Made by a program: the position numbers and the translations under genes. DNA of 64,000 nucleotides from contig NC_057716.1 of assembly GCF_004010195.1 (NCBI RefSeq), forward strand, positions 26,253,132 through 26,317,131, read 5' to 3'. The notes below the pieces were generated by a model. The model made no database searches and was not told the origin of the DNA. It saw only the letters and a program-made list of their open reading frames with translations. This document shows positions 91-61,905 of the stretch, piece after piece (positions within the stretch are counted from its first letter, which is position 1; each line of letters opens with the position of its first letter). Source of the DNA: Chiloscyllium plagiosum (lineage: Eukaryota).

Positions 91-207
91 GAGAAAGTGA
101 GGACTGCAGATGCTGGAGGTCAGAGTCAAAAAGTGTGGTGCTTGAAAAGGCAGCATCCGAGGAGCAGGAGAGTCAATGTTTCGAGCATCAGCTCTTCATC
201 AGAAATT
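91..207 (-). mobile_element. Short non-autonomous PLE-like repeat with minimal hammerhead ribozyme
   Basis: Reverse complement of 173-202 = CTGATGA AGAGC TGAT GCTC GAAA CATTGA (core, stem II, GAAA); flank ctgcagatgctggag...gcagcatccgaggagcagg is shared with copies at 22.3, 44.3 and 56 kb. Confidence 0.75.
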
Positions 208-596
208 GAAGTGCCTGCCTCACTTTCAAAATCAACTTAAGAGTTGATGCTCAACTACTGTCTTGAAGGACTAGCAGGTAGGGGAAAAGGATTTTTAAAA
301 GGAGGTCCATTCAACAATGCAATAGAATACTTTTTTGAAGAAATTTCTTAAATTGTTAGATTCAAGAACTCCCCACAATCAGCAACTGTTTTGAAAGTTG
401 TAATGTAAAAACACGAATAAAGAAAACAAAGTTGTCGTTTCTGACATTGGATAGTAACACTCGTGTTCTGTGGTATTTTATCAGTTTCAAACTTATGATT
501 TTTTTCAAATGCTGGATATCAGAAAGGGGGTGTTGTTTAATTGCGTGTGCTCTTTGTAAACTGGTTAAACCATGACAAATGTTTTTGTGTTCTTAG

Positions 597-702
597 GATC
601 GTCTGGAAGTAGGTGGTGTACAGGCACACAACACTCGCAGCAGTAATATTACTAGCCAGTGGCATACCCAGTCCTCCGGCGCCAGAGAGAGAGCAACAAT
701 AG
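597..702 (+). CDS. PARD3B: PARD3B internal coding exon A (106 nt, phase 0->1)
   Basis: Acceptor gtttttgtgttcttag|, donor |gtaagc; open frame DRLEVGGVQAHNTRSSNITSQWHTQSSGARERATI; the terminal G joins CA of the next exon (Ala). Low sequence conservation, so assigned by phase chain and position. Confidence 0.75.
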
Positions 703-845
703 GTAAGCAAGCCTGTGTTGCAATGGAAACAAATTCATGTGCCCTGATCGACCAAAGTTTTGGGGGCTGGTTGCTTAGACTAGATGTTATACGCTCAAGC
801 AAACAAATTGATGTATTCCTCTGATTCAACAATTAAATGATTCCT

Positions 846-1152
846 TTAGTGAGAGGGGCATAACCTTAAGATTAGAGCAATGTTCTTCAGGGACAATGTC
901 AAGAGGCACTTATCAGGTTGTACACTTGCTTGCTGAGCTAGTAGATTTGTTCTTAGACGTTTCGTCACCATGCTCGATGAGCCTCCATCACTGATGATGT
1001 CACCTAACATGGTGACAAAACATCCCAAGAGCAAATCTACCAGCTCAGTGAGCAAATTTACAACCTGATCTACAACCTGAACTACAAATCTTCTCCAAAA
1101 TCTCAAAGGAAGCACTTATTCCCACAACAGGAAGTGAAGGTCTGGAACACTC
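846..1152 (+). mobile_element. CR1 LINE 3' remnant interrupted by a PLE hairpin
   Basis: agaggggcataaccttaagattaga (RGHNLKIR-like) ... gtgaaggtctggaacactc (VWN.L-like), split at ~912. Confidence 0.5.
912..1106. mobile_element. Inverted-repeat (hairpin) Penelope pLTR remnant with hammerhead cores
   Basis: 912-~970 is the reverse complement of ~1010-1067; + strand CTGATGA TGTCACC TAACAT GGTGAC AAAAC; tail actacaaatcttctc matches the PLE terminus at 26101; flanking gcacttat is duplicated. Confidence 0.75.
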
Positions 1153-1160
1153 ATGCTAAT

Positions 1161-1525
1161 TTTTAAAAAAATTAATTCACTTGCTGTGGGCATCACTGGC
1201 TGGGCCAGCATTTATTGCCCAGCTCTGAGTTGTCTAGAAGGCAGTTAAGTGTTAACCAAGTCGCTGTGGATCTGCAGTCACATGGAGGCTAGACCAGGTA
1301 AGGGTGGCAATTTCCTTTTCTTAAAGCACATTTGTGAACCAGCTGTTTTTTTTTCTGACAACCGATAATGGTTTCATGGTCATCATTAGATTCCTAGTTT
1401 CAGATATGTTATTGAATTCAAATTCCACTAATCTGCCATGACAGGATTTGAATCCAGGTCACCAGAACATTAACTAGGTCTCTGGATGAATCATCTTGCA
1501 ATTATATTACTAGGCCATCACCTCT
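1161..1525 (-). mobile_element. Shark tRNA-derived SINE, second family (non-HE1)
   Basis: Reverse complement of the copy at 53358-53740 (head gtgatggcctagt...ggattcaaatcc, tail aataaatgctggcc...gaattaattttttaaaaa). Confidence 0.7.
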
Positions 1526-2110: not shown

Positions 2111-2340
2111 AAAACAAAGAACTGCGGAGCTGGAAATCTGAAACAAAAACAGAAAAAGCTGGAGAAACTCAGTAGGCGTGGTAGTGTGGAGAGAAAGCTG
2201 AGTCAATGTTTCGAGTCCAAAGACCTTTCTTCAGAACTGGATCTGAAGAATAGTCTCTGGACCCAAAATATTGACTCTGCTTTCTCTCTCCAGTTCTCCA
2301 GAAGAGATACCGAACCTGAAGCTTTATTCAGCAATTGCTG
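2111..2340. mobile_element. Inverted pair of hammerhead-bearing short PLE-like repeats
   Basis: Minus core 2203-2234 (CTGAAGA AAGGTC TTTG GACTC GAAA CATTGA) and plus core 2243-2274 (CTGAAGA ATAGTC TCTG GACCC AAAA TATTGA), with complementary flanks. Confidence 0.7.
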
Positions 2341-3172
2341 AAGGAAAAATCTTGCTCCCATAAGAAACAACTGCAGGAACAAACCATGCATACCCCATGC
2401 CCTCTCCCCTCAAACCTATCTCCACCATTCATTAAGATTATGGTTAATCTTCAATCTGTGCTCCACTATCCCGTTGGTCACCATGTCCCTTGATTCCTCA
2501 CATTTGGTAAAAGCTTTTGATTTCAGCCTTGAATATCCTATATAGTGACATAGGTTCACTTTGCTGCTCCCTTCCTTTTTACATGCTTTCTTAATATTTC
2601 CTGCTAGTTCACTTTCATGTTTATTTTCTGCATCTTTATCACCTCTTGGTTTCTGAAACTAAAAACTCAGGCTTACAACTTTTCTTGGCAAGATTAATCT
2701 GACAATAGTATTACATTTTTTTAGGAGCAGGTGGATTTTTATCACAGAGTTTTAATTAGTCAATAGAATGCACATTTGTTGAGAATTTTGAAATTATATT
2801 AAAATAAGTGTTTGCCATAAGGCATGCACATGATTTTGCTGGCAGTCTCATATGTAAGGGCCAAACCAGAATAATCTCCTTATGTATTTAACTTCTTTTT
2901 CACTCACTCAACCAACTGCATCCAGTCTACCATCCATATTGAGCTGTGTTATGAATATCAGAAAACCAATAAATCTCCAACTGTGGTGTCTATTTTCCTT
3001 TCCTAGTCCACTGCATTCATTGCCATCCTCAACATTGCTGATCTTCATTCCTGCAGTAACCCAGGCTCTTAGTACACTCAGTGATGCATTTCCACAGGCA
3101 CTGATGGTCTAATATCTGCTTCAAGCACTCAGAAAAGGGAAGAGAGAGCCTGCGTTTATATAGCACTGGCTT

Positions 3173-3500
3173 ATTAGATTAGATTAGATTAGATTAGATT
3201 ACTTACAGTGTGGAAACAGGCCCTTCGGCCCAACAAGTCCACACCGAACCGCCGAAGCGCAACCCACCCATACCCCTACATTTACCCCTTACCTAACACT
3301 ACGGGCAATTTAGCATGGCCAATTCACCTGACCTGCACATCTTTGGACTGTGGGAGGAAACCGGAGCACCCGGAGGAAACCCACGCAGACACGGGGAGAA
3401 CGTGCAAACTCCACACAGTCAGTCGCCTGAGGCGGGAATTGAACCCGGGTCTCTGATGCTGCGAGGCAGCAGTGCTAACCACTGTACCACCGTGCCGCCC
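3173..3500 (-). mobile_element. HE1-type V-SINE, full length, young
   Basis: tRNA-like head with A/B boxes (tggtacagtggt; ggttcaattcc), V-domain tgtgtggagtttgcacgttctccccgtgtctgcgtgggtttcctccgggtgctccgg, CR1-like tail ending (TAATC)n. Confidence 0.92.
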
Positions 3501-4154
3501 ACTATGTTCGGAGTGTTACCAAAGTACTTTCATTCGTTGAGTTAATTTCATGAAGTACATGTTGGCAGAATACTCCCTTACTAAGCAGAAAACTGGGATC
3601 ATCATCATCATTTTTCACATGAGATCTGCCACCAGGTTATAATACTGTCGTTTGTCAAATGGAACAGGATATTGATGGGGAATTGTATAAAACCTTGGGT
3701 TCGTATGTGTCCCTATGTTCTCCACATTCATGTTCATGGCAATTTCTCTGCTTTCAGTTGTGTAATAATGTCACCAATCTCTGCCACCCCTAGCTCTCAT
3801 TCAATTTAGGGCTAAATAGTGTTTCTGTTGAAGGTCTATGCCTACAAGGCATTCTTTTGAAGGAATTGAGTTCTCCAGGAAAATGGGCACTTTGTTACTC
3901 TTGTCAACCTCCTCAGTGGTGTTTTGCATTAAGACATTTTCAGTCTTTCTGGACACAAGCTTCTTGACTGAAGGAATGTGTCTGTATGGCATGTGAATGT
4001 AATCACAGTTGATTTGTGTATCTTTATTCTACTGGAGTGAACCTGCTTCAAATCACTCCTCATTTACCCTCCATATTTAGAATTTAATGCACAAATTGTT
4101 TCTAGATCTATCAGTTTCCAGGATACTATTTTACAGTCTTGTTTATGTTTACAG

Positions 4155-4260
4155 CAAATGATGAGGGGGAGGTTGAAATTCCACCTCTGCTTCCACCACA
4201 TCCTGATGAAGAAGAGGCCATGGGAATATACAAAATGTGGTCTTTTCGCGAAGATAAGAG
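4155..4260 (+). CDS. PARD3B: PARD3B internal coding exon B (106 nt, phase 1->2)
   Basis: Acceptor tttatgtttacag|, donor AG|gtttgt; frame (A)NDEGEVEIPPLLPPHPDEEEAMGIYKMWSFREDK(S); resembles the Par3-family Pro-rich segment after PDZ3. Confidence 0.82.
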
Positions 4261-4387
4261 GTTTGTAACCAGAAGTTAACCCTAGTCATTAACTTGGTAA
4301 TATAGTAAATGTAGCTTGCTGGTGGTGCTGATTAAACCTCTGCTCGTTAATTTAGATTCTCACTGCTGGGTGAAAGAAAGTCAGAAA

Positions 4388-5268: not shown

Positions 5269-5399
5269 TTCTGACCAGAATTCTGCTTCACAATCGCTGC
5301 ACCAAAGACCGACGGCTGGAGTTGCAGAATATCAGGCCAACAATACTGTGCAGCGGCAGTCTCCTGGCAAAATCAGCGGTTCCAAGAGCATGGATTTGG
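5269..5399 (+). CDS. PARD3B: PARD3B internal coding exon C (131 nt, phase 2->1)
   Basis: Acceptor ctcccacag|, donor G|gtaagg; frame SDQNSASQSLHQRPTAGVAEYQANNTVQRQSPGKISGSKSMDL, ending in the Par3-family SKSMDL motif (ORF track 5252..5440). Confidence 0.9.
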
Positions 5400-12096: not shown

Positions 12097-12099
12097 ATA

Positions 12100-15205: not shown

Positions 15206-15266
15206 ATGGAAAAGGAGAACTTATTCTAAAGAGATTTTAATCATGTCTTTTCTTTGTGCTTTCCAG

Positions 15267-15311
15267 TGGCGGATGAAGGCAACGTTAGATCTCTAGCAGT
15301 GCTTCAATCTG
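15267..15311 (+). CDS. PARD3B: PARD3B 45-nt coding exon D (phase 1->1)
   Basis: Strong acceptor tcttttctttgtgctttccag|, donor G|gtaaga; only phase 1 is open: (V)ADEGNVRSLAVLQS. Matches recalled human PARD3B DLVPDESKVHSLAGQKS better than PARD3 DLGIADETKLNTVDDQKA. Confidence 0.88.
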
Positions 15312-21070: not shown

Positions 21071-22230
21071 CAAGATTGAAAACTGATGCATCTTTTATAA
21101 CTGGTCATGGAATACATAGCTCATCCTTCTGCAGAGCTGAAGGAAATACCTCCATTTGCGTGCCACCTTCCGCAATCATCAGACATCCCAATGTGCTTTA
21201 CAATCATTGAAGCGTGTCATTATTGTCGTATTGCGGACAGCACCATTACTTGTGATACTAGACCTTTTTGTGGCATAATTGCAGATTTACGTCGTGGTCA
21301 TTTTGAACCTTAGTCAATGGATATTTTCTTAGGGCAAAACTCTAGTCTACTTTGTGTCCGACTTGTTTGTTAATAGAAACCATATTAGTCCAACCATCCA
21401 AAGATTAACCGGCAAATTTATAAGTGAGAGGATAATCCGATGACCTAGCTTGTATTTTGCTGAAGGGATAAAACAAAAATGATTCATTTCATTCTGGATT
21501 ATTCCCCTCCCTGCTATGTACCTCGAGGAAATAGAAAATCATTAGCAGAGATATAAAGTCTCTGCAGCAGAATAAACTTCCCATTGTGATCGACAGGGGG
21601 ATAAAGTCTGAGGTTTTGGAGCAGTGTGTTTTAGGAACTGATCCTGCCGCAAACTCCCCATTGTGGCAGTAATATCCATTTAATAGTGCATCATGTTGCG
21701 ATCCATATTCCCCATTCTCATCAGTGCACAGCATAATCTATCAAAGGGACATCACTGTCCCTGTAACTGTGTTAGGCAAGTTTTTTTTTGTTCTTAATCT
21801 ATTTATGAGTGCACATCATATTGTGTTGCTTGTGGGTGATGCCAAAATAGTACTTGACTTCCAAAACAGTCCCCCACTGAAAAGGGTGTTGATATTCTTG
21901 TAATTATTAGTTCTTGCCTCGAGTTTTTCCAGCAGAAGTATTCTAACTTGACCTGTCCTGCTTTGCAAATAATAAAATCTCTTTGCCCAGCAGAGTCATG
22001 GTATTTTGTTCTTGATATAGGTTTCCTTTTACGGATAGCTGATAAACACCTAACTTATCGTCCTAATCAGCTGTGTTTTTTGTTTGGAGCAGGGCATCTC
22101 GTTAGTGATCCACTTTTAGTTGGACTGTTCTCTGCACTTTTTACTTTACAAATTGTTGGGAAGGCATGCTGCTAATGATGCTGTTAGGGCAACATTTGTG
22201 ACCTAATTAATTGATGGGACCAGCAGTTCC

Positions 22231-22445
22231 AAAATAAAAATTGCTGGAAAACCTCAGCAGGTCTGACAGCTTCTGTTGAGAGAAATAAGAGTTAACATTT
22301 TGTGTTGAGTGACCCTTCCTCAGATGCTGAAGCAGGGCTTATACCCAAAACGTCGATTCTCCTGCTCCCCGGATGCTGCCTGACCTGCTGAGCTTTTCCA
22401 GCAATTTCTGTTTTGGTTGCTGATTTACAGCGTCCACAGTGCTTT
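22231..22445. mobile_element. Inverted pair of hammerhead-bearing short PLE-like repeats
   Basis: ttgctggaaaacctcagcaggtc ... gacctgctgagcttttccagcaa is an inverted repeat; minus core CTGAGGA AGGGTC.. and degenerate plus core CTGAAGC AGGGC TTAT ACCC AAAA CGTC. Confidence 0.7.
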
Positions 22446-25979: not shown

Positions 25980-26164
25980 CTAACCCGTTATAAAGGGGAG
26001 GTGGTATCCTAAAGTCCCCACATGCAGCAAAGTCGCACTCAGGTTGGTCTTGCAGAAATGAAGAATTGGCATTGGGATCAGGAATGTGATCAAAGTTTGT
26101 GAGAAGATTTGTAGCTCGGTTGCTCGTTGTTGTGGTTCTGTTCGCCGAGCTGGGAATTTGTGTT

Positions 26165-26204
26165 GCAGACGTTTCGTCTCCTGTCTAGGTGACATCCTCA
26201 GTGC
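26165..26204 (-). ncRNA. Minimal type I hammerhead ribozyme in PLE pLTR
   Basis: Reverse complement GCA CTGAGGA TGTCACCT AGAC AGGAGAC GAAA CGTC TGC: intact core, stem II, palindromic ACGT, 3-bp stem I. Confidence 0.75.
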
Positions 26205-26481
26205 TTGGGAGCCTCCTGTGAAGCGCTTCTGTGTTGTTTCCTCCAGCATTTATAGTGGTTTGTCTCTGCCGCTTCCGGTTGTCAGTTCCAGCTGTCCGCT
26301 GCAGTGGCCGGTATATTGGGTCCAGGTCGATGTGTTTGTTGATAGAATCTGTGGATGAGTGCCATGCCTCTAGGAATTCCCTGGCTGTTCTCTGTTTGGC
26401 TTGTCCTATAATAGTAGTGTTGTCCCAGTCAAACTCATGTTGCCTGTCATCTGCGTGTGTGGCTATTAAGGATAGCTGGTC

Positions 26482-27126
26482 NNNNNNNNNNNNNNNNNNN
26501 NNNNNNNNNNNNNNNNNNNNNNNNNNNNNNNNNNNNNNNNNNNNNNNNNNNNNNNNNNNNNNNNNNNNNNNNNNNNNNNNNNNNNNNNNNNNNNNNNNNN
26601 NNNNNNNNNNNNNNNNNNNNNNNNNNNNNNNNNNNNNNNNNNNNNNNNNNNNNNNNNNNNNNNNNNNNNNNNNNNNNNNNNNNNNNNNNNNNNNNNNNNN
26701 NNNNNNNNNNNNNNNNNNNNNNNNNNNNNNNNNNNNNNNNNNNNNNNNNNNNNNNNNNNNNNNNNNNNNNNNNNNNNNNNNNNNNNNNNNNNNNNNNNNN
26801 NNNNNNNNNNNNNNNNNNNNNNNNNNNNNNNNNNNNNNNNNNNNNNNNNNNNNNNNNNNNNNNNNNNNNNNNNNNNNNNNNNNNNNNNNNNNNNNNNNNN
26901 NNNNNNNNNNNNNNNNNNNNNNNNNNNNNNNNNNNNNNNNNNNNNNNNNNNNNNNNNNNNNNNNNNNNNNNNNNNNNNNNNNNNNNNNNNNNNNNNNNNN
27001 NNNNNNNNNNNNNNNNNNNNNNNNNNNNNNNNNNNNNNNNNNNNNNNNNNNNNNNNNNNNNNNNNNNNNNNNNNNNNNNNNNNNNNNNNNNNNNNNNNNN
27101 NNNNNNNNNNNNNNNNNNNNNNNNNN
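26482..27126. other. Assembly gap (645 N) inside PLE
   Basis: Run of N. Confidence 1.
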
Positions 27127-27421
27127 AGTGTGGCTAGTCCTTTGGGATGCGGCATATCCTCATTCCGATGTCTTTCCCTTAGGCATCTGTTGATGAAATT
27201 GCGGGGGTATCCGTTTTTGGCGAATACATTGTAGGAGGTTTTCATCCACCTATATCCACCATGGCATTCATCCACAGATTCAATTAATAAGCACATCGAC
27301 CTGGACCCAATATACTGGCCACTGCAGCGGACAGCTGGAACTGACAACCGGAAGCAGCAGGTACAAATCACTATAAATGCCGGAGGAAACAACACAGAAG
27401 CGCTTCACAGGAGGCTCCCAA

Positions 27422-27461
27422 GTGCTGAGGATGTCACCTAGACAGGAGACGAAACGTCTGC
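27422..27461 (+). ncRNA. Minimal type I hammerhead ribozyme in inverted pLTR (sense to host pre-mRNA)
   Basis: CTGAGGA TGTCACCTAGACAGGAGAC GAAA CGTC TGC. Confidence 0.72.
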
Positions 27462-30262
27462 AACACAAATTCCCAGCTCGGCAAACAGAACCACAACAAT
27501 CAGGAATGTGAATCGGGGAGAACCTTAAAAAATAAAAAAAGTGCTGGAGAAACTCAGCAGGGGCACCATCTGTGGATGGACAAACAAATTAACATTTTGA
27601 ATCCAATTTGTTTCTGTGTATTTTTTTATTTTAGATCCCTAACATCCATAGTGCCATACTTTTAAGTTAGGCCCTAGTCAAGAATCTGTGTGCAGGCAAC
27701 AGATGCATGACCATCATTACACATTGGTGTTGGAGAGAGGTATCATTGGGCAACAGCATCTGTGACTGGGTGGTCCCCTTCAGAATACCCTTTGCACGCT
27801 CAAATGGGGAAGGGGCTGGGAAAGGTTTCTCTTGAACCAGGCTGACCTACTTTCCCCTGGGGTCAGGGAGCCACACCATGTGGGATTGCCTTTGTTTTTT
27901 GGTCAAAGAAAGAATGTTCAATTTTACAAATTGGAGTAGTGGAGCCTTCATGGATTATGTTAATGTCAGAGAGGAGAACTGCTGTCATAGCTCATGAATT
28001 CTCAGGACTCCATGGGGGTGGAATACAAAATCTATTGTGAAGGTAAGACTCTTAAGTTCAGGGAGATGGTTTTGCCATCTGGAGTAGGATCTTGAATGCA
28101 CTGTCTGAACTCCTCAATCATGTACGTGAATGGCTCATGACCATGCATCTCCAACTCAGCCATAATTAGTATGCCACAGAATAGGAAGTACATAAATTAT
28201 TAGGTGTTGAGGGATATGGTAACATAGGGTAATGTTCCCGAACTAGTCATCCAGGTTCAGTAATGTTCTTTAGTGAAACAAAACTGCTTTCTGTGACTCC
28301 AGACCCACAGCAATGTACTTGACTCTTAACTGCCCTCTGAAATGACCCATCAAGCCACTCTGTTATTATCAAGACAAAGACTCCCGATCAGCTTCTTGTA
28401 GTTGATTAGGTATGGACAATAAATGCTGGTCTTACAGGCATTCCAGACATCCTGGGAGGTCAGCACAAGCCAACGTGAAAATTCAAAAATAGGAAGGTTA
28501 AAAGTGAGCACATTCTTAGACGTCTGTCTGACATCCATGTAGTTTATTAGATATTCTGCTTTCCACACTGCAGTAGTTTTACCTCTCAGTCATGGAGTTA
28601 AAGGTGAAGCTGCTGAAAAGAGAAGTTGCAATCAGTTTCTCCAGTGCAATAATAGTTTCCAGTATAAACAACAAAAAAAGCTCCTTTTGAACAGAAATTC
28701 ATGCTACCACTATTAATATTGATCCAATTACTTTGTATGAAGCATATCCTGTACTGGGTTACCTTGGATTTGGCGGGCAGTCTGATGAGGGTTTACATTT
28801 TTGAAGCTGCTGTTCCTAATAATATGCCCTTTTGCATTGCCAATAGCTTGGGGGCCTGAGTGTATAGTTTGGAAAAGGGAGAGGACTACGTGCCAATAAA
28901 ATGACACATTTGTTGCTGGGTTAATCTGTTACAGCATTTGTTAAGCTACTTTCAGGCATTTGCTTTTAACCTTTCATCTGCTAGCAGCTCCAGGGAAATC
29001 TATGCTCCCTGGTCAGCCATTTCTTGTGCTAAAGAATTCAGCTCAAAACTCAGCAATGCTGAAAATATTCCCTAATACTAGAGTAAGCGTCCAAGTCAGA
29101 TGACGGAGAACCTTTATTACTATCATAACATTCTTCTACTGAAACATGTATATGTCTACTCTAAGGCACAGAATCGATAAAGAAAGAACAAACATGCATT
29201 TACATAGCTTTTTGCACAGTCTGAGTGTTAAGTATAGTTGGCATGAAGCCAAGCTGATGAAGTATAAGAGAAAATAAATTGTGCGAAAATAGATTCCTCA
29301 TGAAGGCTCAAAGTTTTGGGAGGTCTTAACAGATTTGATTATCCAACAATTCAAATTAAGCAATTTAACTTAATGCAAGACATTCAAACTATTAAATCAT
29401 CTCAATTGAACAACTTATCTTCGTCGATTTAGTGACTGTGCCATGAGGCGTTTAGACCCAACGTTCTGGAATTCCCTCTCTAATCCTTTCCATTTCTCTT
29501 CTGACTGTACATGTACAAAACTCAGCTCTTCGACCAAGTATTTGGTCAATGGTCTTAACAACTTGTCATCAGACTATATCAAGTGTTGTCTGATAAAACT
29601 CCTGTGATGTTCCTCGAGATGCTTAATTAGTTGATGCTGCATAAATCCAAGTTATTGTAGTGCTCTGGTCACCCTAACCTACAGGACCATTTTCTAACTC
29701 TGGTATTTGGAAGAAAAGTTTGATTTATGTAACCTCTTCCATTTCCTTCAATGACTCAAAACCCTTTTGAGCTAATGAATTACTTTGAAATAGAGTCCCT
29801 GTTTTTAACTGATAAAAAAGACAAAGAGCAAAGTCCCACAAGTGCAATGAAATAGGCGATTCATGTGTACTTGGTGAGATTGGTTAAGCAGAGAACTCCT
29901 TCCCATTTTTGTCCATTGGACTGGGTCTTAATTTAGTATCTCATCTAAATGAATAATGCAGCACTTGATTGTTTGTTGAAGTCCTAAGTGGGATGTGAAT
30001 GTTTGAATTCTGCTAGACATTTCTGTTAGTTTCTTCAACATTTTAAAAAATGATTTGTTGTCCATGTCAATGCAATTGTTCATCATTAAGGAAGTGAAAA
30101 ACATTTGTTGGTGATTCTGGTGATGCTCTGCAATATCTACAGACTCCCATCTGTTATTAGAGCTGCCACAACTAAACAGTGTTAATGTAGTAGAAACTAG
30201 CAATGGAGTGTTCAAAACATGAAACATTTTTAACCCACCCAAATCTTGGAAGCTCAGGGTGT

Positions 30263-30365
30263 ATGTGGGGATTACAAAGTTAAAAATCACACAACACCAG
30301 GTTTATTTGAAGGGCTAGCTTTCGGAGCACTGCTCCTTCATTAGGTGGATGAGGAGCAGCGCTGT
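30263..30365 (-). mobile_element. Short hammerhead-bearing repeat (family of 37780)
   Basis: acaaagttaaaaatcacacaacaccagg; reverse complement CTAATGA AGGAGC AGT GCTCC GAAA GCTAG (core mutated), followed by a partial inverted copy. Confidence 0.7.
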
Positions 30366-30494
30366 GCCTTTTACTTTAATGGCTATTTGGAGCTTTTCCG
30401 ATACTCTCTTGTTTGTATCTTGTCTTGTGCAAATCTGTCCTGGACATTTGCCAATGTATTATACCGAGGTGCATGTCTTGGCTGATCCAGTAAC

Positions 30495-33480: not shown

Positions 33481-33491
33481 AACACTGCAGT

Positions 33492-37779: not shown

Positions 37780-37909
37780 ATGATTTGGAGATGTCGGTGT
37801 TGGACTGGGGTGTACAAAGTTAAAAATCACACAACACCAGGTTATAGTCCAACAGGTTTAATTGGAAGCACACTAGATTTCGGAGCGACGCTCCTTCATC
37901 AGGTGATTG
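37780..37909 (-). mobile_element. ~130-bp hammerhead-bearing short retroelement with 11-bp TSD
   Basis: Reverse complement of 37873-37902 = CTGATGA AGGAGC GTC GCTCC GAAA TCTAG; tcatgctggtt at 37769-37779 and 37910-37920. Confidence 0.8.
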
Positions 37910-39513: not shown

Positions 39514-39610
39514 AGACCTGAAGAAGGGTTACATCTGAAACATTGACTTGTTCACCACCTGACGCTGCCAGGCTTGCTGTGTTCTTCCAGCCTCCTGCTT
39601 GTCTACCTTG
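39514..39610 (+). mobile_element. Short PLE-like repeat with hammerhead core (sense)
   Basis: CTGAAGA AGGGT TAC ATCT GAAA CATTGA followed by ...ctgacgctgccaggcttgctgtgttcttccagc. Confidence 0.65.
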
Positions 39611-44148: not shown

Positions 44149-44252
44149 GTGATGTGGAGGAGCCGGTGTTGGATTGAGCTGGACAAAGTTAAAAAGCTTC
44201 CAAATAAACCTGTTGGACTATAACCTGGTGTTGTGTGATTTTTAACTTTGTC
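44149..44252. mobile_element. Inverted fragment pair of the 37780 repeat family
   Basis: tgatgtggaggagccggtgttgga...acaaagttaaaaa followed by the reverse-complement arm ...ctggtgttgtgtgatttttaactttgt. Confidence 0.65.
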
Positions 44253-44341
44253 AACCCTGTATCAGACAGTTCTCATCTGAACTTTTGTTATTTCCGCACT
44301 TGACTCTTGCAGTGCTGTCCTGGCCAGTTTCCCACTTTACA

Positions 44342-44432
44342 CATTCCTGAAGAAGGGCTAATGCCTGAAACGTCGATTCTCCTGTTCCCTAGATGCTGCC
44401 TGACCTGCTGCGCTTTTCCAGCAACACATTTC
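44342..44432 (+). mobile_element. Short PLE-like repeat with intact hammerhead core (sense)
   Basis: attc CTGAAGA AGGGC TAAT GCCT GAAA CGTC gatt...gatgctgcctgacctgctgcgcttttccagc. Confidence 0.78.
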
Positions 44433-44961
44433 CAACCCTCCAGTAAACCTCAGTTCATTCAAAAGTCTACTGTCTTCATCTCCATTCATGAACAACCCTT
44501 TAACATTATTTGAAAATGAGCAGGTAATTCCCTTGCTCTGGATAGCATTCCTCACTTAAACAGCGCTGCCCAGAAGATAGATTCACTTGTTATTCATCTC
44601 ATAGCCTTTTGTGACACTGTGGGTTGTGCAAAAATGGCTTGTGCATGCCCACAATAACATCGATAATTATTCCTCAAAAAGTAAGTAATTGGATATACCA
44701 CCTTACTCTGTAAAAGGTGTTGCATTACTACTATTGCTTTGATATGAAGTGCTTCAGAATATAATGGGTGACGTGATCAGATGATTTATGATTTTTTTTA
44801 TATAATGCATCAACAGCTTGAAATTATATAAGAGTGTTATCAAACATGTAAGAGATGTTAGTGCAGGGATAGATTCTAAGGAATGCCTTCAAGGGCAAGA
44901 AAGAGCAAAGTGATGTTTAGCGAGACATTCCAGAGTTTTGGTTGAAGGAGGCCCAGCTGAC

Positions 44962-50083: not shown

Positions 50084-50424
50084 GTAGAATCCCTACAGCA
50101 TGGAAGAGGGCTGTTGAGCCCATCAAGTCTACACGAATCTTCTGAAGAGCATTCCAACCAGACCCTTCCACCCTATCCCTATAACCCTTCACCTCCCATG
50201 GCTAATCCACTTAGCCTGCACATCCCTGGACACTATGGGCAATTTAACCAGGCCAATCCACCTAACCTGTACATCTTTGGACTGTAGGAGGAAACTGGAG
50301 CACCCGGAGGAAGCCCACCCAGACACAGGGAGAATATGCAAATTCCACACAGACAGTCATCTGAAGATGGAATCAAACCCTGGTCCCTGGCACTGTGAGG
50401 CAACAGTGCTACTACTGTGCTGCC
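50084..50424 (-). mobile_element. HE1-type V-SINE, diverged, nested in a DeuSINE remnant
   Basis: V-domain and head; the flanks 49990-50083 and 50425-50710 are Deu-like. Confidence 0.82.
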
Positions 50425-50730: not shown

Positions 50731-50857
50731 AAAATCAAAATGCTGCAGATGCTGGAAATGTGAAATAGTAACAAGAAGTGCTGGAGAAACTCAGTAGGTC
50801 TGCTAGCATCTGCGGAGAGAGAAATAGTGTTAACATTTCAAGTTCATATGACTTTTC
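50731..50857 (-). mobile_element. Degenerate hammerhead-family short repeat
   Basis: tgctgcagatgctggaaatgtgaaa...gtgctggagaaactcagtaggtctgctagcatctg...ttaacatttc; same family as 2111. Confidence 0.65.
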
Positions 50858-51839
50858 TATGGAGTGCTTATTTTTATTGCATCTCTTTTAGTTATTGTCT
50901 GTAGTGCTGGAGCCTTCCTTTTACTCCTGATTGCCAGGATTGTAATCTCATCTGTGAAGAACTGTGGGCACAAGCTGCATGGGTTGCTATCTTTCCACAA
51001 TGCTCGACACTTGGGTGTCAATGCATGTGCAGTTGTTAACGGTTTTTCAGTCAGTCTAAGAAGTTTGTGCTCCAACAACAGTAACAAAGGCAACGTTAAC
51101 AGCTCAAACATCTGTAGTTAGCCTTCCTCGTAACTTTTGTGGCACAAGATGCGACTGTGGAACTTGTTAAGGCAGACATATGTTCCACGCCAACATATGT
51201 TGAAAGTTATTGTTGTTCAGAGTTGATTTCAATGGGTTTTGAATTGTGGCCAAAGCTTAGCCTCAACACAAAGGGAGATTCAGTTTCCAAGGCATGTGGG
51301 TGCTAAATAAGACATTATTTTGTTTTTTTTTGCGTGTGGCTGGAATGTAAATTATCTGCATTGCTCTTCTTTTCCATTGTCCCCTGCTGAGCTCAGAATT
51401 CCCCTGAAGCCTGCCAACAGTATAACTCAGAGCCTAAGCTGGTACTACTTTTGGTTTTGGGTTAAATTCTCTAGCTCCTTGAGAGATATTCACAATCATT
51501 GCTTGGATTTATATTTGTCTCTTTCTGTGGGTGGTCCATCCTTCTCAGGGCAATGGATTATGCAGAAGGATCCATTTTCTTTGTGTCAAACTCACTTGAT
51601 TCATTGCACTAAAAATATCACTCATGTTCCATAAACGCTTGTTTGATTGCCAGTGAAAGAAGAAAAAAGGTTTGAGGAGATGAATGTGTATTAGCCTCCC
51701 ACTTCCATTCCCAACATTGACTGTGCACTAAAAAGCTGGTTTTATTGACTTGCGCCAATTTTTCTAACTTATCCGTATGATATGGAATGACTGGAATTTT
51801 TCCTGCATTACTGTTTCTCAGCAGACACTGTGACTTGTG

Positions 51840-52175: not shown

Positions 52176-53084
52176 AGGAAGCAAACAGTGACTGCACTTC
52201 ATTATCTCTCATGTATTTTGAGATAACTTTAAGTCATATAAGGAGTCACAAGACTTTTTTTTAAGTGCCTGTCCTTAATTGTTTTATGGAAAGTTAGTGC
52301 TTAGCTGCTTTCTTGGACTACTGTAGCAGTTCAAGAAAGCAGCTCAGCACTAACTTTCCACAGAACAATTAAGGATAGCTACAGTAGTTCAAGAGGTGCT
52401 TCCCACATTGCTAATATGTTGGACTCTCAGGATTTTAACCCGGTGACTATCGTGTCTCTGAGTAAATGTTTGTTTCATTTGGAATTGTTTGGCGCAATGA
52501 TAGTGTAATATCCAGGTCAACGTTACCTTCAATTGACTCAATGTTATGGACAGAAGAAAAGGAAAAGCAACAGAACTTTCTTCGCATATGCATAACCCAA
52601 ACTGATCATATTTCTGCTTAATTTGTACCAGGTGCACTATTTCCCAGCAAATTTATCATTTGTCAAATTCTGAGTCATTGCATGAAAACCATCATTGAAT
52701 CCAGGCTGCAAAAACAAAGGCCTACAAAGCTGAATAAAAACATCCCCGAACTTGGGCATGTCTATATTAATACAATTAGATACTGTATCTCCCACTTTAT
52801 TACCAGACTCCGGATGGTGTTTCTGGTATAAATATGTTGGAATTCTTTCAAGTGGATGTCATTTAAGCTTTTATGAAGTTTCATATTGTTTTGTACTTGT
52901 TAAGTGGGGAGAAAGTTTCTCTGGCTTGGGACTTGCGAAACTGAACTGCTGATGTTACCAGGGCACGGGTGGAAGTTAAAATCTCAACTTTCTCTCTTGG
53001 TGGTCCCTCAAAATGATGAGGACGCTCACAAATGTATAAAAAACGAACGGGAGTTGATTATTCCACCCACCGAGCCTATTTTTC

Positions 53085-55225: not shown

Positions 55226-55534
55226 CACGGTGGCACAGTGGTTAGCACTGCTGCCTCACAGCGCCTGAGACCCGGGTTCAATTCCCGCCTCAGGCGACTG
55301 ACTGTGTGGAGTTTGCACGTTCTCCCCGTGTCTGCGTGGGTTTCCTCCGGGTGCTCCGGTTTCCTCCCACAGTCCAAAAGATGTGCAGGGTCAGGTGAAT
55401 TGGCCATGCTAAATTGCCCGTAGTGTTAGGTAAGTGGTAAATGTAGGGGTATGGGTGGGCTTCGCTTCGGCGGGTCGGTGTGGACTTGTTGGGCCGAAGG
55501 GCCTGTTTCCACACTGTAATGTAATCTAATCTAA
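55226..55534 (+). mobile_element. HE1-type V-SINE, young
   Basis: Near-identical to the 3173 and 61456 copies. Confidence 0.92.
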
Positions 55535-55950
55535 AAAAAAAGCCGAGGCCATATGGTCAGTGTGTGTGAGAGAGAGAGAGAGAAATAAACCTACACTGCT
55601 GTCTGACACAGCAGTGAATCTGCACAGCTACTGCCCTTGTTGTTGGAGTTCTAGTATTTCTGGGACATAGGAGTGTGTCTAAGAAAAATTAACAACCAGT
55701 GAAATTCACAGTGACCTTGAAGGAAACTGTGTGGGAGAGCTCATAGCACAGGAGCAGATAAGTGCATGGTTTTTAAGTGTAATCTTGCTGTATTTTTTTA
55801 ATAGTGAGTAGAGTGGGTTCTTTTTGGTTATATGTTTTAGTGAGATCTGTTTCTTGATTAAAATTTAAAAATACAAACCATAGCTTCTAAGTTAGCCAGG
55901 AGCAGTGTTTCTTTTTAGAAAAGTAAGACTGTGCTGGTTTCTGTCATGAC

Positions 55951-56126
55951 TAGAGTAGTGCTGGAAAAGCACAGCAGGTCAGGCAGCATCTGAGGAGCAG
56001 GAAAAATCGGCATTTTTGATGAATGGCTTTTCCTTGCTCCTTGGATGCTGCCTGACCTGCTGTGTTTTTCGAGTATCACTCTGATTTTGACTCTAATCTC
56101 CAGCATCTGCAGTACCTACTTCTGCC
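55951..56126. mobile_element. Inverted pair of hammerhead-family repeats, centre deleted, nested in CR1 5' region
   Basis: gtgctggaaaagcacagcaggtcaggcagcatc ... gatgctgcctgacctgctgtgtttttcgagtatcac is an inverted repeat. Confidence 0.72.
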
Positions 56127-57006: not shown

Positions 57007-57336
57007 AGATTAGATTCCCTACAGTATGGAAACAGGCCCTTTTGGCCCAACAAGTTCACACTGACCCTCCGAAGAGTAACCCACCCTGACTCATTCCCCT
57101 ACCCTATATTTACCCCTCACTAATGCACCCAACACTACGGGCAATTTAGCATGGCCAATTCACCTGACCTGCACATCTTTGGATTGTTGGAGGAAACCGG
57201 AGCACCCAGAGGAAACCCACGCAGACGCGGGGAGAATGTGAAAACTCCACACAGACAGTCACCTGAGGCAGGAATCGAACCCAGGTCCTTGCCGCTGTGA
57301 GGCAGCGGTGCTAACCACTGAGCCACCGTGCCACCC
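57007..57336 (-). mobile_element. HE1-type V-SINE nested in CR1
   Basis: Full head, V-domain, tail agattagatt; attag duplicated on both sides. Confidence 0.9.
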
Positions 57337-60300
57337 ATTAGCGAAAGCTGCTTGGAAGGATTTAAATTAGTAAGGTGGGTGGGACCTAGGGAGATAGTGA
57401 GGAAAGAGATCATTCTGAGACTGGTACAGTTGGAAAAGGAAGCAAGTCAAACAGGCAGGGTAGTTAGGAGCAAAGCAGAGAACAAGGTAAATTAAACTGC
57501 TTTTATTTCAATGCAAGAGGCCTAACAGGGAAGGCAGATGAACTCAGGGCATGGTTAGGAACATGGGAATGGGATATCGTAGCAATTACAGGAATGTGGC
57601 TCCAGGATGGACTGGCAGCTTAATATTCCAGTATACAAATTCTATAGGAAGAATAGAAAGAGGTGGGGTGTGGTGTTTTTGATCAGGGATAGCATTACTG
57701 CTGTTTAGGGAGGATATTCCTGGGAATACATCCAGGGAAGTTAATTGAGTGGAACTGAGAAATAAGAAAGGGATGATTACCTTATTGGGATTGAACTATA
57801 GACCCCAAATAGTCAGCGAGAAATTGAGAAACAAATTTGTAAAGAGATTTCAGTTATATATAAGAATAGTAGGGTGGTAATGGTAGGGGATTTAAATTTT
57901 CCAGACTTAGACTGGGATTGCCAGTGTTGAGGGTTTAGATGGAGAGGAATTTGTTAAGTGTGTATAAGAAAATTTTCTGATTCAGTATGTGGATGTACCA
58001 ACTAGTGAACGTGCAAAACTTGACCTACTCTTATGAAATAAGGCAGGGCAAGTGACTGAGGTGTCAGTGGGGGAGCACTTTGGGGCCAGCGACCATAATT
58101 CTATTAGTTTTAAAATAGCGATGGAAAGGATAGACCAGATCTATAAGTTAAAGTTCTAAATTGGAGGAAGGCTAATTTTGACGGTATTAGGCAAGAACTT
58201 TCAAAAGTTGATTGGTGTGGATGTTTGCAGGTGAGGGGTCGTTGGAAAATTGGAAGCCTTCAAAAATTAGGTAATGAGAGTCCAGAGACAGTATGTTCCT
58301 GTTAGGGTGAAGGGCAAGGCTGGTAGGTCTAGGGAATGCTGGATGACTAGAGAAATTGAGGTTTTGGTCAAGAAAATAAAAGAAGCATGTGTCAGGTATA
58401 GACAGCAGAGATCGAGTGAATCCTTAGAGTACAAGGGCAGTAGAGGTATACTTAAGAGAGGAATCAGGAGGGCAAGAAGGGGACATGAGATAACCTTGGC
58501 AAATAGGGTTAAGGAGAAACTAAGGGGATTTTATAAATACATTAAGAACAAGAGGGTAACTGAGGACAGAATAGGACCCATCAAAGATCATCAAGGCAGC
58601 CTATGAGTGGAATTGCAGGACATTGAGGAGGTAGTAAACGGGTACTTTGTGTTTACTGTGGAGAAGGACATGGAATGTGGGTAAACAGATGGTAACATCT
58701 TGAAAAATGTCCAGATTACAGAAGAGGTGCTGGATGTCTTAAAACACACAAAGGTAGATAAATCCCCAGGACCTGATCAGGTGTAACCTAGACCTCTGTG
58801 AGAAGCTGGGAAAGTGATGGCTGGGCCCCTTGCTAAGATATTTGTATCATCGATAGTCACAGGTGAGGTGCTGGAAGACTGGAGGTTGACTAACGTGGTG
58901 CCACTATTTAAGAAAGGTGGTGAGGGAAGGTCAGGGAATTATAGAGCAGTGAGCCCGACATCGATGGTGGGCACGTTGTTGGAGGGAATCCTGAGGGACA
59001 GGATTTGCATGTATTTGGATAGGCAAGGACTGATTAGGGATAGTCAACATGGAGTTTTGCTTAGGAAATCATGTCTCACTAACTTGATAGAGTTTTTTTT
59101 TAAAGTAAAAAGAAGATTGATGAGGGCAGAGCGGTGGATGTGATCTATATGGACTTCGATAAGGTGTTTGACAATGTTCCTTATGGTAGACTGGTTAACA
59201 AGATTCAGTCACATGGAATAGAGGGACACCTAGCCATTTGAATACAGAACTGGCTCAAAGGTAGAGAGTGATGGTGGACGGTCACTTTTCAGTCTAGAGA
59301 CTTATGACCAAAGATCAGTGCTGGGTCCACTGCTTTTCATCACTTATATAAGTGATTTGGATGTGAACATAGGAGGTATAGTTATTAAGTTTGCAGATGA
59401 TACCAAAATTAGAGGTGTGGTTAACAGAAAAGAAGGTTACCTTAGAGTACAACAGGCTCTTGAGCAGATGGGCCAATGGGCTGAAGAGTGGCAGTGGAGT
59501 TTAATTTAGATAAATGTGAGGTGCTGCATTTTGGAAAGGCAAATCAGACGAGGACTTATACACTTTAATGATAAGGTCCTGGGGAGTGTTGCTGAACAAA
59601 GACACCTTGGAGTGCAGGTTCATAATTCCTTGAAAGTGGAGTTGCAGGTAGATAGATACAATAGTGAAGGTGGTGTTTGGTATGCTTGCTTTTATTTGTG
59701 AGAGCATTGAGTGTAGGAGCTGGAATGTCATTTTGAGGCTGTAAAGGAGATTGGTTAGGCCAATTTTGGAATATTCTTTGCAATTCTAGTCTCCCTCCGA
59801 CCTGAAATGTCAACTCCCCATCTCCTCTGATGCTGCCTGACTTGCTGAGCTTTCGCCGGCTCTTTCTTTTGCCCACCTTTATATTCCATTATCAGTTCTT
59901 CACTCACACTTCCTAATGGAACAATGCCTTCCTTGTTAACCATATTTTTAAAAAAGTATTATTAGAAACTCTTATGATCTGTTTTTGTATTTCTGGCTTA
60001 GCTTCCAGCCTATGTGCTTTTTTGTCATTGTTTACAGTTTTAATATTCTGTCTAATCTGACCTGCCACCTGACATTGCACTATCATATCTGTTTTCTTTA
60101 ACTTTAATCTTTTTAGTTAATCACAGATGTCGGGTCTGTTCCTTGGAAATTTTCTTTCTCATTGGAATGCTGACATATCACCTTAAATGTGTGTTTCTGC
60201 ATCTCAATTGAACACCCTCCACCCTAATTACAACCCCCCCCCAACCAACCACCGTAATCTAGCAAACAGTGATCCTCCTGATGTATCTGGACAATGAAGA

Positions 60301-60399
60301 AACCTGGGTTATGTATCACTGATACCTGAGAGAATTCTGACTCACAAGGACTGCCGCCTCTTTCATTCTTGTATACCAGTGTTTCTGTGTTCTTTAACA

Positions 60400-60910
60400 C
60401 TTAGTATCAATCTCTTTGTCTTTCACTCTCATTCATGTATTGTTTCTATTTTATCTTTCCTCACATTCTTTTTCTCCTGCTCTTTCATTCCTTTTTTTCC
60501 AAAACTCACTTTTAATGTTTTAATTATTTCTATGGTTCCTTTTTTCCTCCCCTTCAATTGACCCTCCGCATCTCATTTACTCACTTGCCCCCCACCCTTC
60601 CCTCTTCTCCTCTCCCCTTCCCCTCACTCCTACCCCACTTGTTTCCCTTTTGCAATTTTGCCTTTCTCTTCCTCTTGCCTCCCTCCAACCTCCTTCACAC
60701 CAACCGCTCTGATTCTCAACTCCCTCTCTCTCTCACTGTATCCCTTAGTCTTCCCTTTCTCCCATCCTTCCCTTTCCCCCATTATCTTCCCTTATTAGTT
60801 CTTGCTATAAATCTTGCTCTCCTTTTGCTTACATACTGATTCTCTCTGCTTTCATTTGCCCTTTTGACTCGGTCTTTAGTCCTCCTGCTCTTTTCTTTCT
60901 TCTCTCCTTT
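60400..60910. repeat. Low-complexity CT-rich tract
   Basis: ~500 bp of strongly pyrimidine-biased + strand. Confidence 0.75.
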
Positions 60911-61455
60911 TGCTCAGCCATAAATACCTTCCAAGAATGTTGTAGACGTTACCCAGCTAAGTGAAATCAATAAGCAAGTTTCAGAAAGAGGAAAAACAGT
61001 TTTGCGTTTTTTTTTCTTTATATTATGAATGAGCATCAGAGCATCATGCAGGAGGAAATGTAGTTTTAGATAAGGGCGGAAAGACTGCTTGGTGATGACT
61101 GGAGAGGAAAGTAATTGACATTTATTTGAATGACGTTTTTATCTGCAACTTCTCAATTTCTGTGTGAAGCTTTGATTACAGTAAAAGAGTGTCAAAGATT
61201 CTGGAGATGGTGGAATTTGCAGAGAGAGTTTGAGATGAAACTTTTTATTAGCCTTTCATAGCAAGTTAGTGGGAAGTTTAAATTCATAAAATATAATTTC
61301 TGTTGTTATTTATTGAAATTAATTGCATGTCCAATTCAGATAGAACTTCAGCGATTGCTTAATCTACTGTAACAACACCACCACACTGGACAGATCAATT
61401 ATTGCATTTGCATGACAAAAAGTGACAAAAAATAATTACAACCTATAATTCCAGT

Positions 61456-61777
61456 GGGTGGCACAGTGGTTAGCAATGCTGCCTCACAGCGCCAGAGACC
61501 CGGGTTCAATTCCCGCCTCAGGTGACTGGCTGTGTGGAGTTTGCACGTTCTCCCCGTGTCTGCGTGGGTTTCCTCCGGGTGCTCCGGTTTCCTCCCACAG
61601 TCCAAAGATGTGCAGGTCAGGTGAATTGGCCATGCTAAATTGCCCGTAGTGTTAGATAAGGGGTAAATGTAGGGGTATGGGTGCGTTTCGCTTCGGCGGG
61701 TCGGTGTGGACTTGTTGGGCCGAAGGGCCTGTTTCCACACTGTAATGTAATCTAATCTAATGTAATGTAATCTAATC
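61456..61777 (+). mobile_element. HE1-type V-SINE, young
   Basis: Head, V-domain, tail (TAATG/TAATC)n. Confidence 0.92.
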
Positions 61778-61810
61778 CATTGCTAAGAGAGTGCAGAATT
61801 GATTATAAAT

Positions 61811-61905
61811 AAAATCAAAGTGCTGGAGAAACTCAATAGGTCTGGCAGCATCTTTTGAGAGAGAAGCAGAGTTACTATTTCAAATCGAATACGACTTCTC
61901 TCCAA
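61811..61905 (-). mobile_element. Degenerate hammerhead-family short repeat
   Basis: gtgctggagaaactcaataggtctggcagcatc...gagagaagcagagtt. Confidence 0.6.

What the first reader, a model, noticed from the sequence alone, without database searches (positions are those of the whole stretch)
91..61905. Dispersed family of short hammerhead-ribozyme retroelements throughout PARD3B introns
Seen in sequence: at least 12 short (90-230 bp) non-coding repeats at ~91, 912, 2111, 22231, 30263, 37780, 39514, 44149, 44342, 50731, 55951 and 61811. They fall into at least three sequence families. Most keep a CTGA.GA - short stem II - GAAA - NUH core, with a (near-)palindromic ACGT/AGCT/ACAT in place of stem III. 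Stem II differs among families while pairing is kept (GAGC/GCTC, GGGC/GCCT, GGAGC/GCTCC, GTCACC/GGTGAC). Established: minimal type I hammerheads of this form are hallmarks of Penelope-like elements and retrozymes and are thought to cleave as dimers. Inference: these are non-autonomous ribozyme-bearing retroelements mobilised in trans by PLE RT/GIY-YIG, at roughly one per 5 kb here. That would imply a very large and probably under-annotated ribozyme population in this shark genome.
Basis: partly seen in the sequence, partly recalled or inferred. Interest (0 to 1): 0.75.

Follow-up and report, generated by a model that had tools for sequence, protein, structure and literature searches.

The report
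Shark Penelope retroelement ends carrying hammerheads
The short repeats in this shark gene's introns are real, but they are broken-off ends of Penelope-type jumping genes (shown for one family, likely for the other two) that carry an already described tiny motif predicted to cut its own RNA, and most copies are mutated and likely inert, so this is ordinary apart from its abundance.

Summary
All 12 named repeats exist; I found 3 more (15 insertions, one per 4.2 kb) in three families inside PARD3B. The hammerhead claim is overstated: 5 of 12 named loci keep the invariant core letters, and none keeps core, G10.1-C11.1 and the palindrome together. 'ACAT' and 'GGGC/GCCT' are likely CpG decay, not variants. 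Families A and C show the same arm-and-tail anatomy, but no parent ORF could be linked. They are not tandem retrozymes. Core letters decay as fast as neighbouring letters (10/88 vs 47/360). One poly(A) RNA run shows no read ends piling up at the predicted cuts (weak test). Minimal hammerheads in dispersed, truncated PLE ends are published (Cervera and De la Pena 2014); I found no paper on sharks beyond a one-species screen. This scan already reported the same thing in many other windows of this and other shark genomes. Verdict: new member of a known kind; interest 0.2.

The parts
95..207 (-). Family A1 stub with tail; core C3 at 202, invariant letters intact, palindrome broken (ACAT)
912..1099 (.). 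Family B (older subfamily) two-armed insertion: + arm with tail (C3 991, G12 changed to A), - arm without tail and without the 5' half of the core; 8-bp flanking direct repeat; hairpin z about -13
2111..2288 (.). Family A2 two-armed insertion: - arm with tail (C3 2234, core letters intact, stem II closing pair broken), short + arm (C3 2243); 8 nt between the two cores
22229..22445 (.). Two-armed insertion joining an A2 arm (-, C3 22323, no tail) to an A1 arm (+, C3 22327, tail); 3 nt between the cores; both cores broken
26090..27498 (-).
27527..27607 (-).
30266..30366 (-). Family C stub, tail-less, G5 changed to A, stem II 5 bp intact, AGCT kept; very short inverted second arm
37781..37909 (-). 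Family C stub with tail; core intact (C3 37902), stem II 5 bp, helix I 3 bp, palindrome broken (ATCT); starts 7 nt before C3; 11-bp target duplication
39516..39610 (+). Family A3 stub; core letters intact (C3 39518) but stem II has two G-U pairs in four and ACAT
44150..44251 (.). Family C two-armed insertion without any hammerhead core; - arm with tail, + arm without; 8-bp flanking direct repeat
44342..44431 (+). Family A1 stub, tail-less; core intact (C3 44347), ACGT kept, G10.1-U11.1 in place of the family's G-C
50732..50865 (-). Family A2 stub with tail; core broken (3 mismatches)
55952..56121 (.). Family A1 two-armed insertion; + arm with tail and internal deletion of the core, - arm tail-less; no intact core; hairpin z about -14
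59785..59863 (+).
61807..61905 (-). Family A2 stub, tail-less; core broken (3 mismatches)
597..701 (+). PARD3B coding exon (host gene)
   Evidence: 86% to whale shark PARD3B
4154..4258 (+). PARD3B coding exon (host gene)
5269..5399 (+). PARD3B coding exon (host gene); AG and GT read from the sequence
15266..15310 (+). Probable short PARD3B exon (12 of 15 residues, collinear, E 0.6)

Best explanation
These repeats are short 3'-end stubs and two-armed (inverted) stubs of Penelope-like retrotransposons whose end repeat carries a minimal type I hammerhead motif, shown for family B and likely for families A and C, and most copies are likely dead, neutrally decaying DNA rather than working ribozymes. 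How it works: (1) shown: a parent element with one RT + GIY-YIG ORF ends in the hammerhead; in family B the ORF's stop codon lies in stem II and an ATG begins at A9, as published for the anole Poseidon element. (2) Established for PLEs: the protein nicks AT-rich DNA and starts reverse transcription at one of two internal sites 30-40 nt apart, which gives ends with or without a tail; shown here as two 3' end positions in all three families. (3) Inferred: copying usually stops early, leaving 90-230-bp stubs; a second, inverted arm is added during insertion, so each hairpin is formed anew. (4) Inferred: the template was mostly uncut RNA, since arms keep both sides of the predicted cut. (5) Inferred: selection kept the motif in the active parents (hence covarying stem II between families), not in the copies. 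(6) Untested: the parents' hammerhead would cut weakly, as a dimer or with the element's protein.
For: Element 26090-27498: 93% identity over 98 aa to a Chiloscyllium punctatum protein with RT and, in relatives, GIY-YIG matches; loose read ends on both sides of the gap and at 27233 continue the same ORF; 13-bp target duplication (0 of about 2,950 random flank pairs reached 12). Summed contig depth falls from the 3' end towards the RT piece (1.8M, 1.6M, 0.46M in X1), a 5'-truncation gradient. Two 3' end positions with unrelated AT-rich flanks: B at 26090/91 and 26126/28, C at 44249 versus a continuing tail, A1 at 44427-31 versus a continuing tail. Of 7 two-armed insertions 6 have exactly one tailed arm; this anatomy is described for PLEs in PMC8557442 (passages) and PMC11167929 (parts 1-2). 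No hammerhead repeat is tandem (0 of 17 rows). Core mismatches 10/88 against 47/360 downstream letters in 8 A arms, Fisher p=0.86. Among laid A1 copies the only core column varying in 12% or more is N7, so the parent family had an intact motif.
Against: No ORF could be tied to family A or C: no genome is held and no copy here extends far upstream. The GIY-YIG motif itself lies in the assembly gap, and Pfam matches of the relatives are below curated cut-offs; no RT tree was built. The decay test is small, leaves out arms without an alignable 5' core half (55951 x2, 27527, 59790) and the single A3 copy, and majority-of-three underestimates A1 divergence. Only 4 of 15 insertions have a flanking direct repeat of 8 bp or more, and 8 bp is reached by about 2% of random pairs. 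Family-B RNA reads are about 8:1 in element sense, so some family-B RNA may be real element transcript in which the ribozyme could act.
Confidence: 0.82

Rival explanations
1. Families A and/or C are dedicated non-autonomous elements (short hammerhead RNAs with their own transcription) that borrow PLE RT/GIY-YIG in trans.
For: No coding sequence next to any of the 13 A or C insertions; many arms begin within 1-14 nt of C3; depth of laid A1 copies is about 10-fold lower just upstream of the core (44341 vs 44351). Non-autonomous PLE derivatives exist (PMC8557442 passage on Chlamys; bioRxiv 10.64898/2026.07.22.740005).
Against: Same tail and inverted-arm anatomy as family B, where the ORF is shown; every two-armed junction differs; a minority of A1 copies continue upstream in shared sequence (rows 44339, 44341); not tandem; the depth drop is confounded by alignment clipping at two mismatches.
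Confidence: 0.13
2. Some copies are kept by selection as working intronic ribozymes that cut or regulate the PARD3B pre-mRNA.
For: 3 of the 7 arms with intact core letters are on the host sense strand (27425, 39518, 44347); domesticated intronic hammerheads are known in amniotes (PMC6155905 passage).
Against: All three are impaired: 27425 has two G-U pairs in helix I and a 93% complementary antisense arm 0.9 kb away, 39518 has a weak stem II and no palindrome, 44347 has G-U closure and a 2-bp helix I; a same-family partner for dimer formation is not adjacent; no excess core conservation.
Confidence: 0.03
3. The hammerhead resemblance is chance within ordinary unrelated repeats.
For: No Rfam hammerhead match up to E=10; the one-mismatch descriptor is not clearly above shuffles; predicted minimum-energy folds of 60-nt monomers and dimers do not give the full hammerhead fold.
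Against: Exact descriptor 7 vs 0-3; three families unrelated in sequence share core, the extra base before 10.1, G-C closure and a 4-nt palindrome; the motif sits at the end of a PLE ORF where it is published to be.
Confidence: 0.02

Closest known systems
Minimal hammerheads (min-HHR) in pLTRs of metazoan Penelope-like elements (Cervera and De la Pena 2014, PMC4209133; parts 1-2 of 4 read, supplement file 2 searched, file 1 not searchable)
   Same: Core, extra base between 9 and 10.1, G10.1-C11.1, palindromic 15.2-16.2, no helix III loop; several consensus families per genome; mostly dispersed single motifs 'probably related to truncated PLEs'; pairs on opposite strands 100-700 bp apart.
   Different: Sharks are not named in the parts read or in supplement file 2. 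Density here (7 intact-core arms in 63 kb) would extrapolate to far more than the 4,000 (coelacanth) and 9,000 (Xenopus) reported. Helix I here is 2-4 bp and stem II 4-6 bp.
Poseidon element of Anolis carolinensis, PAc (Frangieh et al. 2024, PMC11167929; parts 1-2 of 4 read)
   Same: RT + C-terminal GIY-YIG; ORF start at stem II of the hammerhead; two RT start sites giving an optional tail; AT-rich targets; no RNA-seq reads beginning or ending at the cut.
   Different: PAc was tested in vitro (protein-assisted cleavage, uncut RNA as main substrate); nothing here was. Shown for family B only.
EN+ PLE insertion anatomy (Craig et al. 2021, PMC8557442; 12 passages read)
   Same: Heavy 5' truncation, inverted truncated copy, 30-40-bp tail at one end.
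   Different: Most insertions here are reduced to 90-230 bp; no partial tandem is seen in this window.
Non-LTR retrozymes (Cervera and De la Pena 2020, PMC7229834, 12 passages; Li et al. 2026 bioRxiv 10.64898/2026.07.22.740005, parts 1-3 of 5)
   Same: Short non-coding type I hammerhead repeats tied to PLEs; the 2026 preprint reports them in one chondrichthyan.
   Different: Retrozymes are head-to-tail arrays of about 170-400-nt units with mostly canonical hammerheads and circular RNAs; these are solitary or inverted stubs with minimal motifs.
Penelope-like element expansion in whale shark introns (Weber et al., bioRxiv 10.1101/443036; 2 passages read)
   Same: PLEs are already annotated as abundant in carpet-shark introns.
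   Different: The passages read do not mention ribozymes.

Membership tests
EN+ Penelope-like element, Penelope/Poseidon clade | Single ORF with RT followed by C-terminal GIY-YIG (family B) | tested here: met
   Window pieces 91-93% identical to residues 249-282 and 366-463 of P0001 (RVT_1 E 3e-6); relatives P0006, P0009 carry RVT_1 and weak GIY-YIG matches; loose ends continue the ORF into the gap
EN+ Penelope-like element, Penelope/Poseidon clade | Single ORF with RT and GIY-YIG (families A and C) | not testable with these tools
   No genome held; no copy here reaches upstream coding sequence
EN+ Penelope-like element, Penelope/Poseidon clade | [quoted passage not shown] | tested here: met
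   Read by eye in P0001 against the definition in PMC8557442; no tree built; family B only
EN+ Penelope-like element, Penelope/Poseidon clade | Hammerhead in the terminal repeat at the ORF junction | tested here: met
   Stop codon at 26185-26187 inside stem II, ATG at 26195
EN+ Penelope-like element, Penelope/Poseidon clade | Inverted truncated copy next to the insertion | tested here: met
   7 of 15 insertions are two-armed, in all three families
EN+ Penelope-like element, Penelope/Poseidon clade | Optional 30-40-bp tail at one end | tested here: met
   Two 3' end positions in all three families; exactly one tailed arm in 6 of 7 two-armed insertions
EN+ Penelope-like element, Penelope/Poseidon clade | Target-site duplication | tested here: inconclusive
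   13 bp at 26090 and 11 bp at 37780 are clear; 8 bp at 912 and 44149 borderline; 11 of 15 not above chance
Minimal type I hammerhead (min-HHR) | Invariant core CUGANGA, GAAA, UH | tested here: met
   Exact in 7 of 20 arms, 5 of 12 named loci; intact in the majority of laid A1 and C copies
Minimal type I hammerhead (min-HHR) | Extra base between 9 and 10.1, and G10.1-C11.1 | tested here: met
   Extra base in all arms with a core; G-C in 4 of the 7 intact-core arms and in the A1 and C majorities
Minimal type I hammerhead (min-HHR) | Palindromic 15.1-16.1 for dimer helix III | tested here: met
   ACGT (A, B) or AGCT (C) in family majorities; kept in 3 of the 7 intact-core arms
Minimal type I hammerhead (min-HHR) | Helix I of 4-5 bp | tested here: inconclusive
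   2-4 contiguous pairs in the intact-core arms
Minimal type I hammerhead (min-HHR) | Self-cleavage | not testable with these tools
   No read-end pile-up in one poly(A) run, a library that could miss it
Non-LTR retrozyme | Head-to-tail tandem units each with a hammerhead | tested here: not met
   0 of 17 tandem rows involve these families
Non-LTR retrozyme | Monomer of about 170-400 nt | tested here: not met
   Single arms are about 50-140 nt for A and C; B runs into an ORF
Non-LTR retrozyme | Abundant linear and circular monomer RNAs | not testable with these tools
   Only poly(A) single-cell reads were available
Rfam hammerhead families | Covariance-model match | tested here: not met
   None of 11 matches up to E=10 is a hammerhead

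The most novel reading that the evidence does not exclude
Shark genomes hold several hundred thousand hammerhead-bearing PLE stubs, and their ends record the PLE copying reaction: most short arms are run-off cDNAs of the uncut 5' end of the element's mRNA (starting a few bases before C3, not at the cut), and two-armed insertions are made from two separate RNA molecules, as the A1/A2 chimera at 22229-22445 shows, fitting a dimeric RT-endonuclease that primes on both nicked strands. The run-off idea is reused from earlier notes of this scan; the chimera was seen here.
Probability: 0.35. Interest if true: 0.5.

Novelty: new member of a known kind. Interest (0 to 1): 0.2.

Why it matters
If the window is typical, hammerhead-bearing PLE ends are among the commonest short repeats of this shark genome and should be annotated as PLE stubs, not as microRNA-like hairpins or new ribozyme elements. 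They are not evidence of a large working ribozyme population. Their value is as a very large natural record of where PLE reverse transcription starts and stops, which bears on the open question of what the PLE hammerhead does.

Tried and rejected
Whole-genome count and extension of A and C: not possible, no genome held. Rfam scan: no hammerhead; the miRNA-like hits at 55960, 44178 and 2194 are the two-armed hairpins. Pfam on 30 window ORFs: the two PLE pieces gave no match on their own; two LINE-like RT pieces matched RVT_1. Short Par3 motif hunts (recalled motifs) found no exon; the exons came from a composition ranking and homologue search. One-mismatch descriptor: not discriminating. Minimum-energy folding of monomers and dimers did not give a full hammerhead fold and was not used. 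Empty-site test for 26090-27498: no skipping joint among the 15 shown (187 not shown); one contig of organism C crosses the left junction by 63 letters, so the insertion is likely shared and gives no empty site. No RNA holder listed for the stretch searched; run X22 laid 0 reads on 44090-44480, no test; X21 had no depth on unique flanks, so this locus's own RNA was not sampled. Summed contig depths were not used as copy numbers. Look-ups of earlier findings by sequence and near this place were empty. The 2017 RNA Biology paper on dimeric cleavage (recalled) is not held and is not used. Paper searches: hammerhead ribozyme+Penelope+shark (1 hit, 'shark' only for the motif's name); hammerhead+ribozyme+Penelope-like (37); Penelope+shark genome+intron (3); Penelope+Neptune+Chondrichthyes (1); bamboo shark+Penelope (2); hammerhead ribozyme+cartilaginous fish (1, unrelated). 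Dfam and Repbase were not available; supplements of the 2026 preprint are closed and may list shark families.
Full report
Setting. The window is carpet-shark DNA: a translated piece at 26188-26481 is 93% identical to a Chiloscyllium punctatum protein and an exon at about 5269-5399 is 91% identical to whale shark PARD3B. tblastn places PARD3B coding exons on the + strand at 597-701, 4154-4258, about 5269-5399 and probably 15266-15310; the next residues are not found, so 15.3-64 kb is likely one long intron. Locus 91 lies before the first exon seen, 912 and 2111 in the next intron, the other nine named loci after 15310. No whole genome is held, so all counts are for this window or for public reads laid on it.

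The observation. Self-comparison and profile searches place all 12 named loci in three families and add three insertions: A (subfamilies A1: 91, 22231+, 44342, 55951; A2: 2111, 22231-, 27527, 50731, 61811; A3: 39514; unplaced 59790), B (912, 26090-27498) and C (30263, 37780, 44149). That is 15 insertions in 63,190 called bases, one per 4.2 kb. An exact descriptor gives 7 hits against 0-3 in 12 shuffles, 6 of them in these families; with one mismatch 14 against 4-12. Rfam finds no hammerhead up to E=10.

State of the motif. I tabulated 20 of 22 arms (the two left out, at 30263+ and 44150-, are too short to hold a core). Seven keep all invariant letters: 91, 2111a, 26090a, 26090b, 37780, 39514, 44342. 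Among the 12 named loci that is 5; three more have one mismatch in the best arm; four have lost the core. Only the two arms of the missed element combine core, G10.1-C11.1 and the palindrome, and both have a mismatch in stem II. Reads laid on 44090-44480 show what the parents looked like: at 44366 most copies read C (4.9M of 6.1M depth in X1), restoring GGGC/GCCC; the only core column varying in 12% or more is N7; and the loose-end consensus before 44196 is an intact family-C core with GGAGC/GCTCC and AGCT. So the covariation between families is real and belongs to the parents, while ACAT and GCCT are likely decay at CpG. In 8 A arms core mismatches (10/88) match downstream mismatches (47/360), p=0.86; the test is small and omits five A arms as stated in the Against line.

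What it is. The insertion at 26090-27498 settles family B. On the - strand it reads: inverted tail-less copy of the 3' end (27498-27260), 26 nt of filler, an RT C-terminal piece (27233-27126), an assembly gap, the GIY-YIG C-terminal piece (26481-26188), the hammerhead and a tail, between 13-bp direct repeats. The matching protein P0001 has an RVT_1 match and relatives have weak GIY-YIG matches; read ends on both sides of the gap and beyond 27233 continue that ORF. The linker lacks the Neptune-type cysteine motif (one search read against PMC8557442), so Poseidon-type, without a tree. The ORF's stop lies in stem II and an ATG starts at A9 and stays open to the end of the tail, like the anole element PAc (PMC11167929). 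A zebra shark protein, P0009, reads through the 912 subfamily sequence (12 of 17 residues, E 0.14). Laid contigs show two 3' end sites 36-38 nt apart with unrelated AT-rich flanks and depth falling towards the RT piece. Families A1 and C show the same two-site 3' end, and 6 of 7 two-armed insertions have exactly one tailed arm. This is the published PLE anatomy (PMC8557442). None of the repeats is tandem, so they fail the retrozyme definition (PMC7229834). For A and C no parent ORF could be reached, so a non-autonomous parent remains possible.

Where arms begin. Read: 37780 starts 7 nt before C3 inside an 11-bp duplication; the two cores are 3 nt apart at 22231 and 8 nt apart at 2111; 30263, 39514, 44342 and 55951b start within about 14 nt of C3; 912b, 55951a, 27527 and 59790 start inside stem II; both 26090 arms run into the ORF; only 44149+ starts near the predicted cut, ambiguously. 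So nearly all arms with a core span the cut and were likely copied from uncut RNA, as found in vitro for PAc. Earlier notes of this scan read such stubs as run-off copies of a capped 5' end; I reuse that as a lead and could test it only on these few arms. The 10-fold depth drop upstream of the A1 core fits it but is confounded by clipping at two mismatches.

RNA. In one poly(A) single-cell run (X21, about 2% read) 667 reads lay on family B, 13 of them 99% alike or more, so most come from other loci; they are about 8:1 in element sense at the hammerhead and 13:1 on the RT piece, if the first mate is antisense as usual. A and C reads (3,240) are near strand-balanced (C 505:497; A 755:1174) and all run on into other sequence. 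No place has many molecules beginning or ending, at the cut or elsewhere. This library cannot show non-polyadenylated or circular RNAs and fragments its cDNA, so the result is weak; it agrees with the anole RNA-seq result.

Effect on the host. Three intact-core arms are on the PARD3B sense strand, each impaired, and four of the two-armed insertions fold into long hairpins (z -8 to -14) that would mask the motif. Cleavage of the pre-mRNA is unlikely.

Known or new. Cervera and De la Pena 2014 described these motifs in fish, coelacanth and Xenopus PLEs, as thousands of dispersed single copies and opposite-strand pairs, with low in vitro activity. PLE expansion in whale shark introns is in print, and a 2026 preprint screened one chondrichthyan for PLEs and retrozymes. 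Six paper searches found no description of shark min-HHR families; Dfam, Repbase, supplement file 1 of the 2014 paper and the preprint's supplements were not seen. The scan itself has reported this pattern in many windows of this genome and in other shark genomes; the genome-wide counts and U6 fusions in those notes were not tested here, and Rfam finds no U6 in this window.

Verdict. Observation partly confirmed; interpretation partly supported; best explanation truncated PLE ends with decaying minimal hammerheads (0.82); new member of a known kind; interest 0.2.

Noticed in passing
22229-22445: The two arms come from different subfamilies (A2 arm 78-80% to other A2 copies, A1 arm 88% to 44342, 71% to each other), with cores 3 nt apart. 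One cDNA folding back cannot make this; it needs two templates or a second insertion into the first.
   Followed up: partly
52269-52378: Near-perfect 110-bp palindrome (z about -16) unrelated to the three families and single in the window; possibly a MITE or another two-armed insertion.
   Followed up: partly
26482-27126: The assembly gap is 645 N, but the ORF missing between the flanks is only about 83 codons, so the gap is oversized or hides a further repeat.
   Followed up: partly
44400-44424 and equivalent A copies: Family A carries a CTGAC followed by a pyrimidine run and CAG, resembling a branch point and 3' splice site in element sense; could allow exonisation. Not tested.
   Followed up: no
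P0003, P0007, P0008, P0011, P0013, P0014: Several predicted shark proteins named after host genes end in or contain family-B endonuclease sequence: exonised PLE pieces or annotation read-through.
   Followed up: no
3161-3504, 25721-25911, 32865-33807, 40069-40405, 50085-50420, 55226-55535, 57007-57340, 61451-61785: An abundant tRNA-type SINE-like family, young (up to 96-97% alike), with a tandem of 324-bp units at 33182-33807.
   Followed up: no
9750-10680, 41044-42855, 58271-59500, 63100-64000: LINE fragments with RT-like frames (RVT_1 at 10202-10672 and 42239-42610).
   Followed up: partly
47088-47188 and 47509-47607: A pair of related 100-bp stretches 320 bp apart, which look inverted; possible arms of an old DNA element.
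   Followed up: no
29254-29288: The one exact descriptor hit outside the repeat families; long AT-rich loop, no UH, probably chance.
   Followed up: partly
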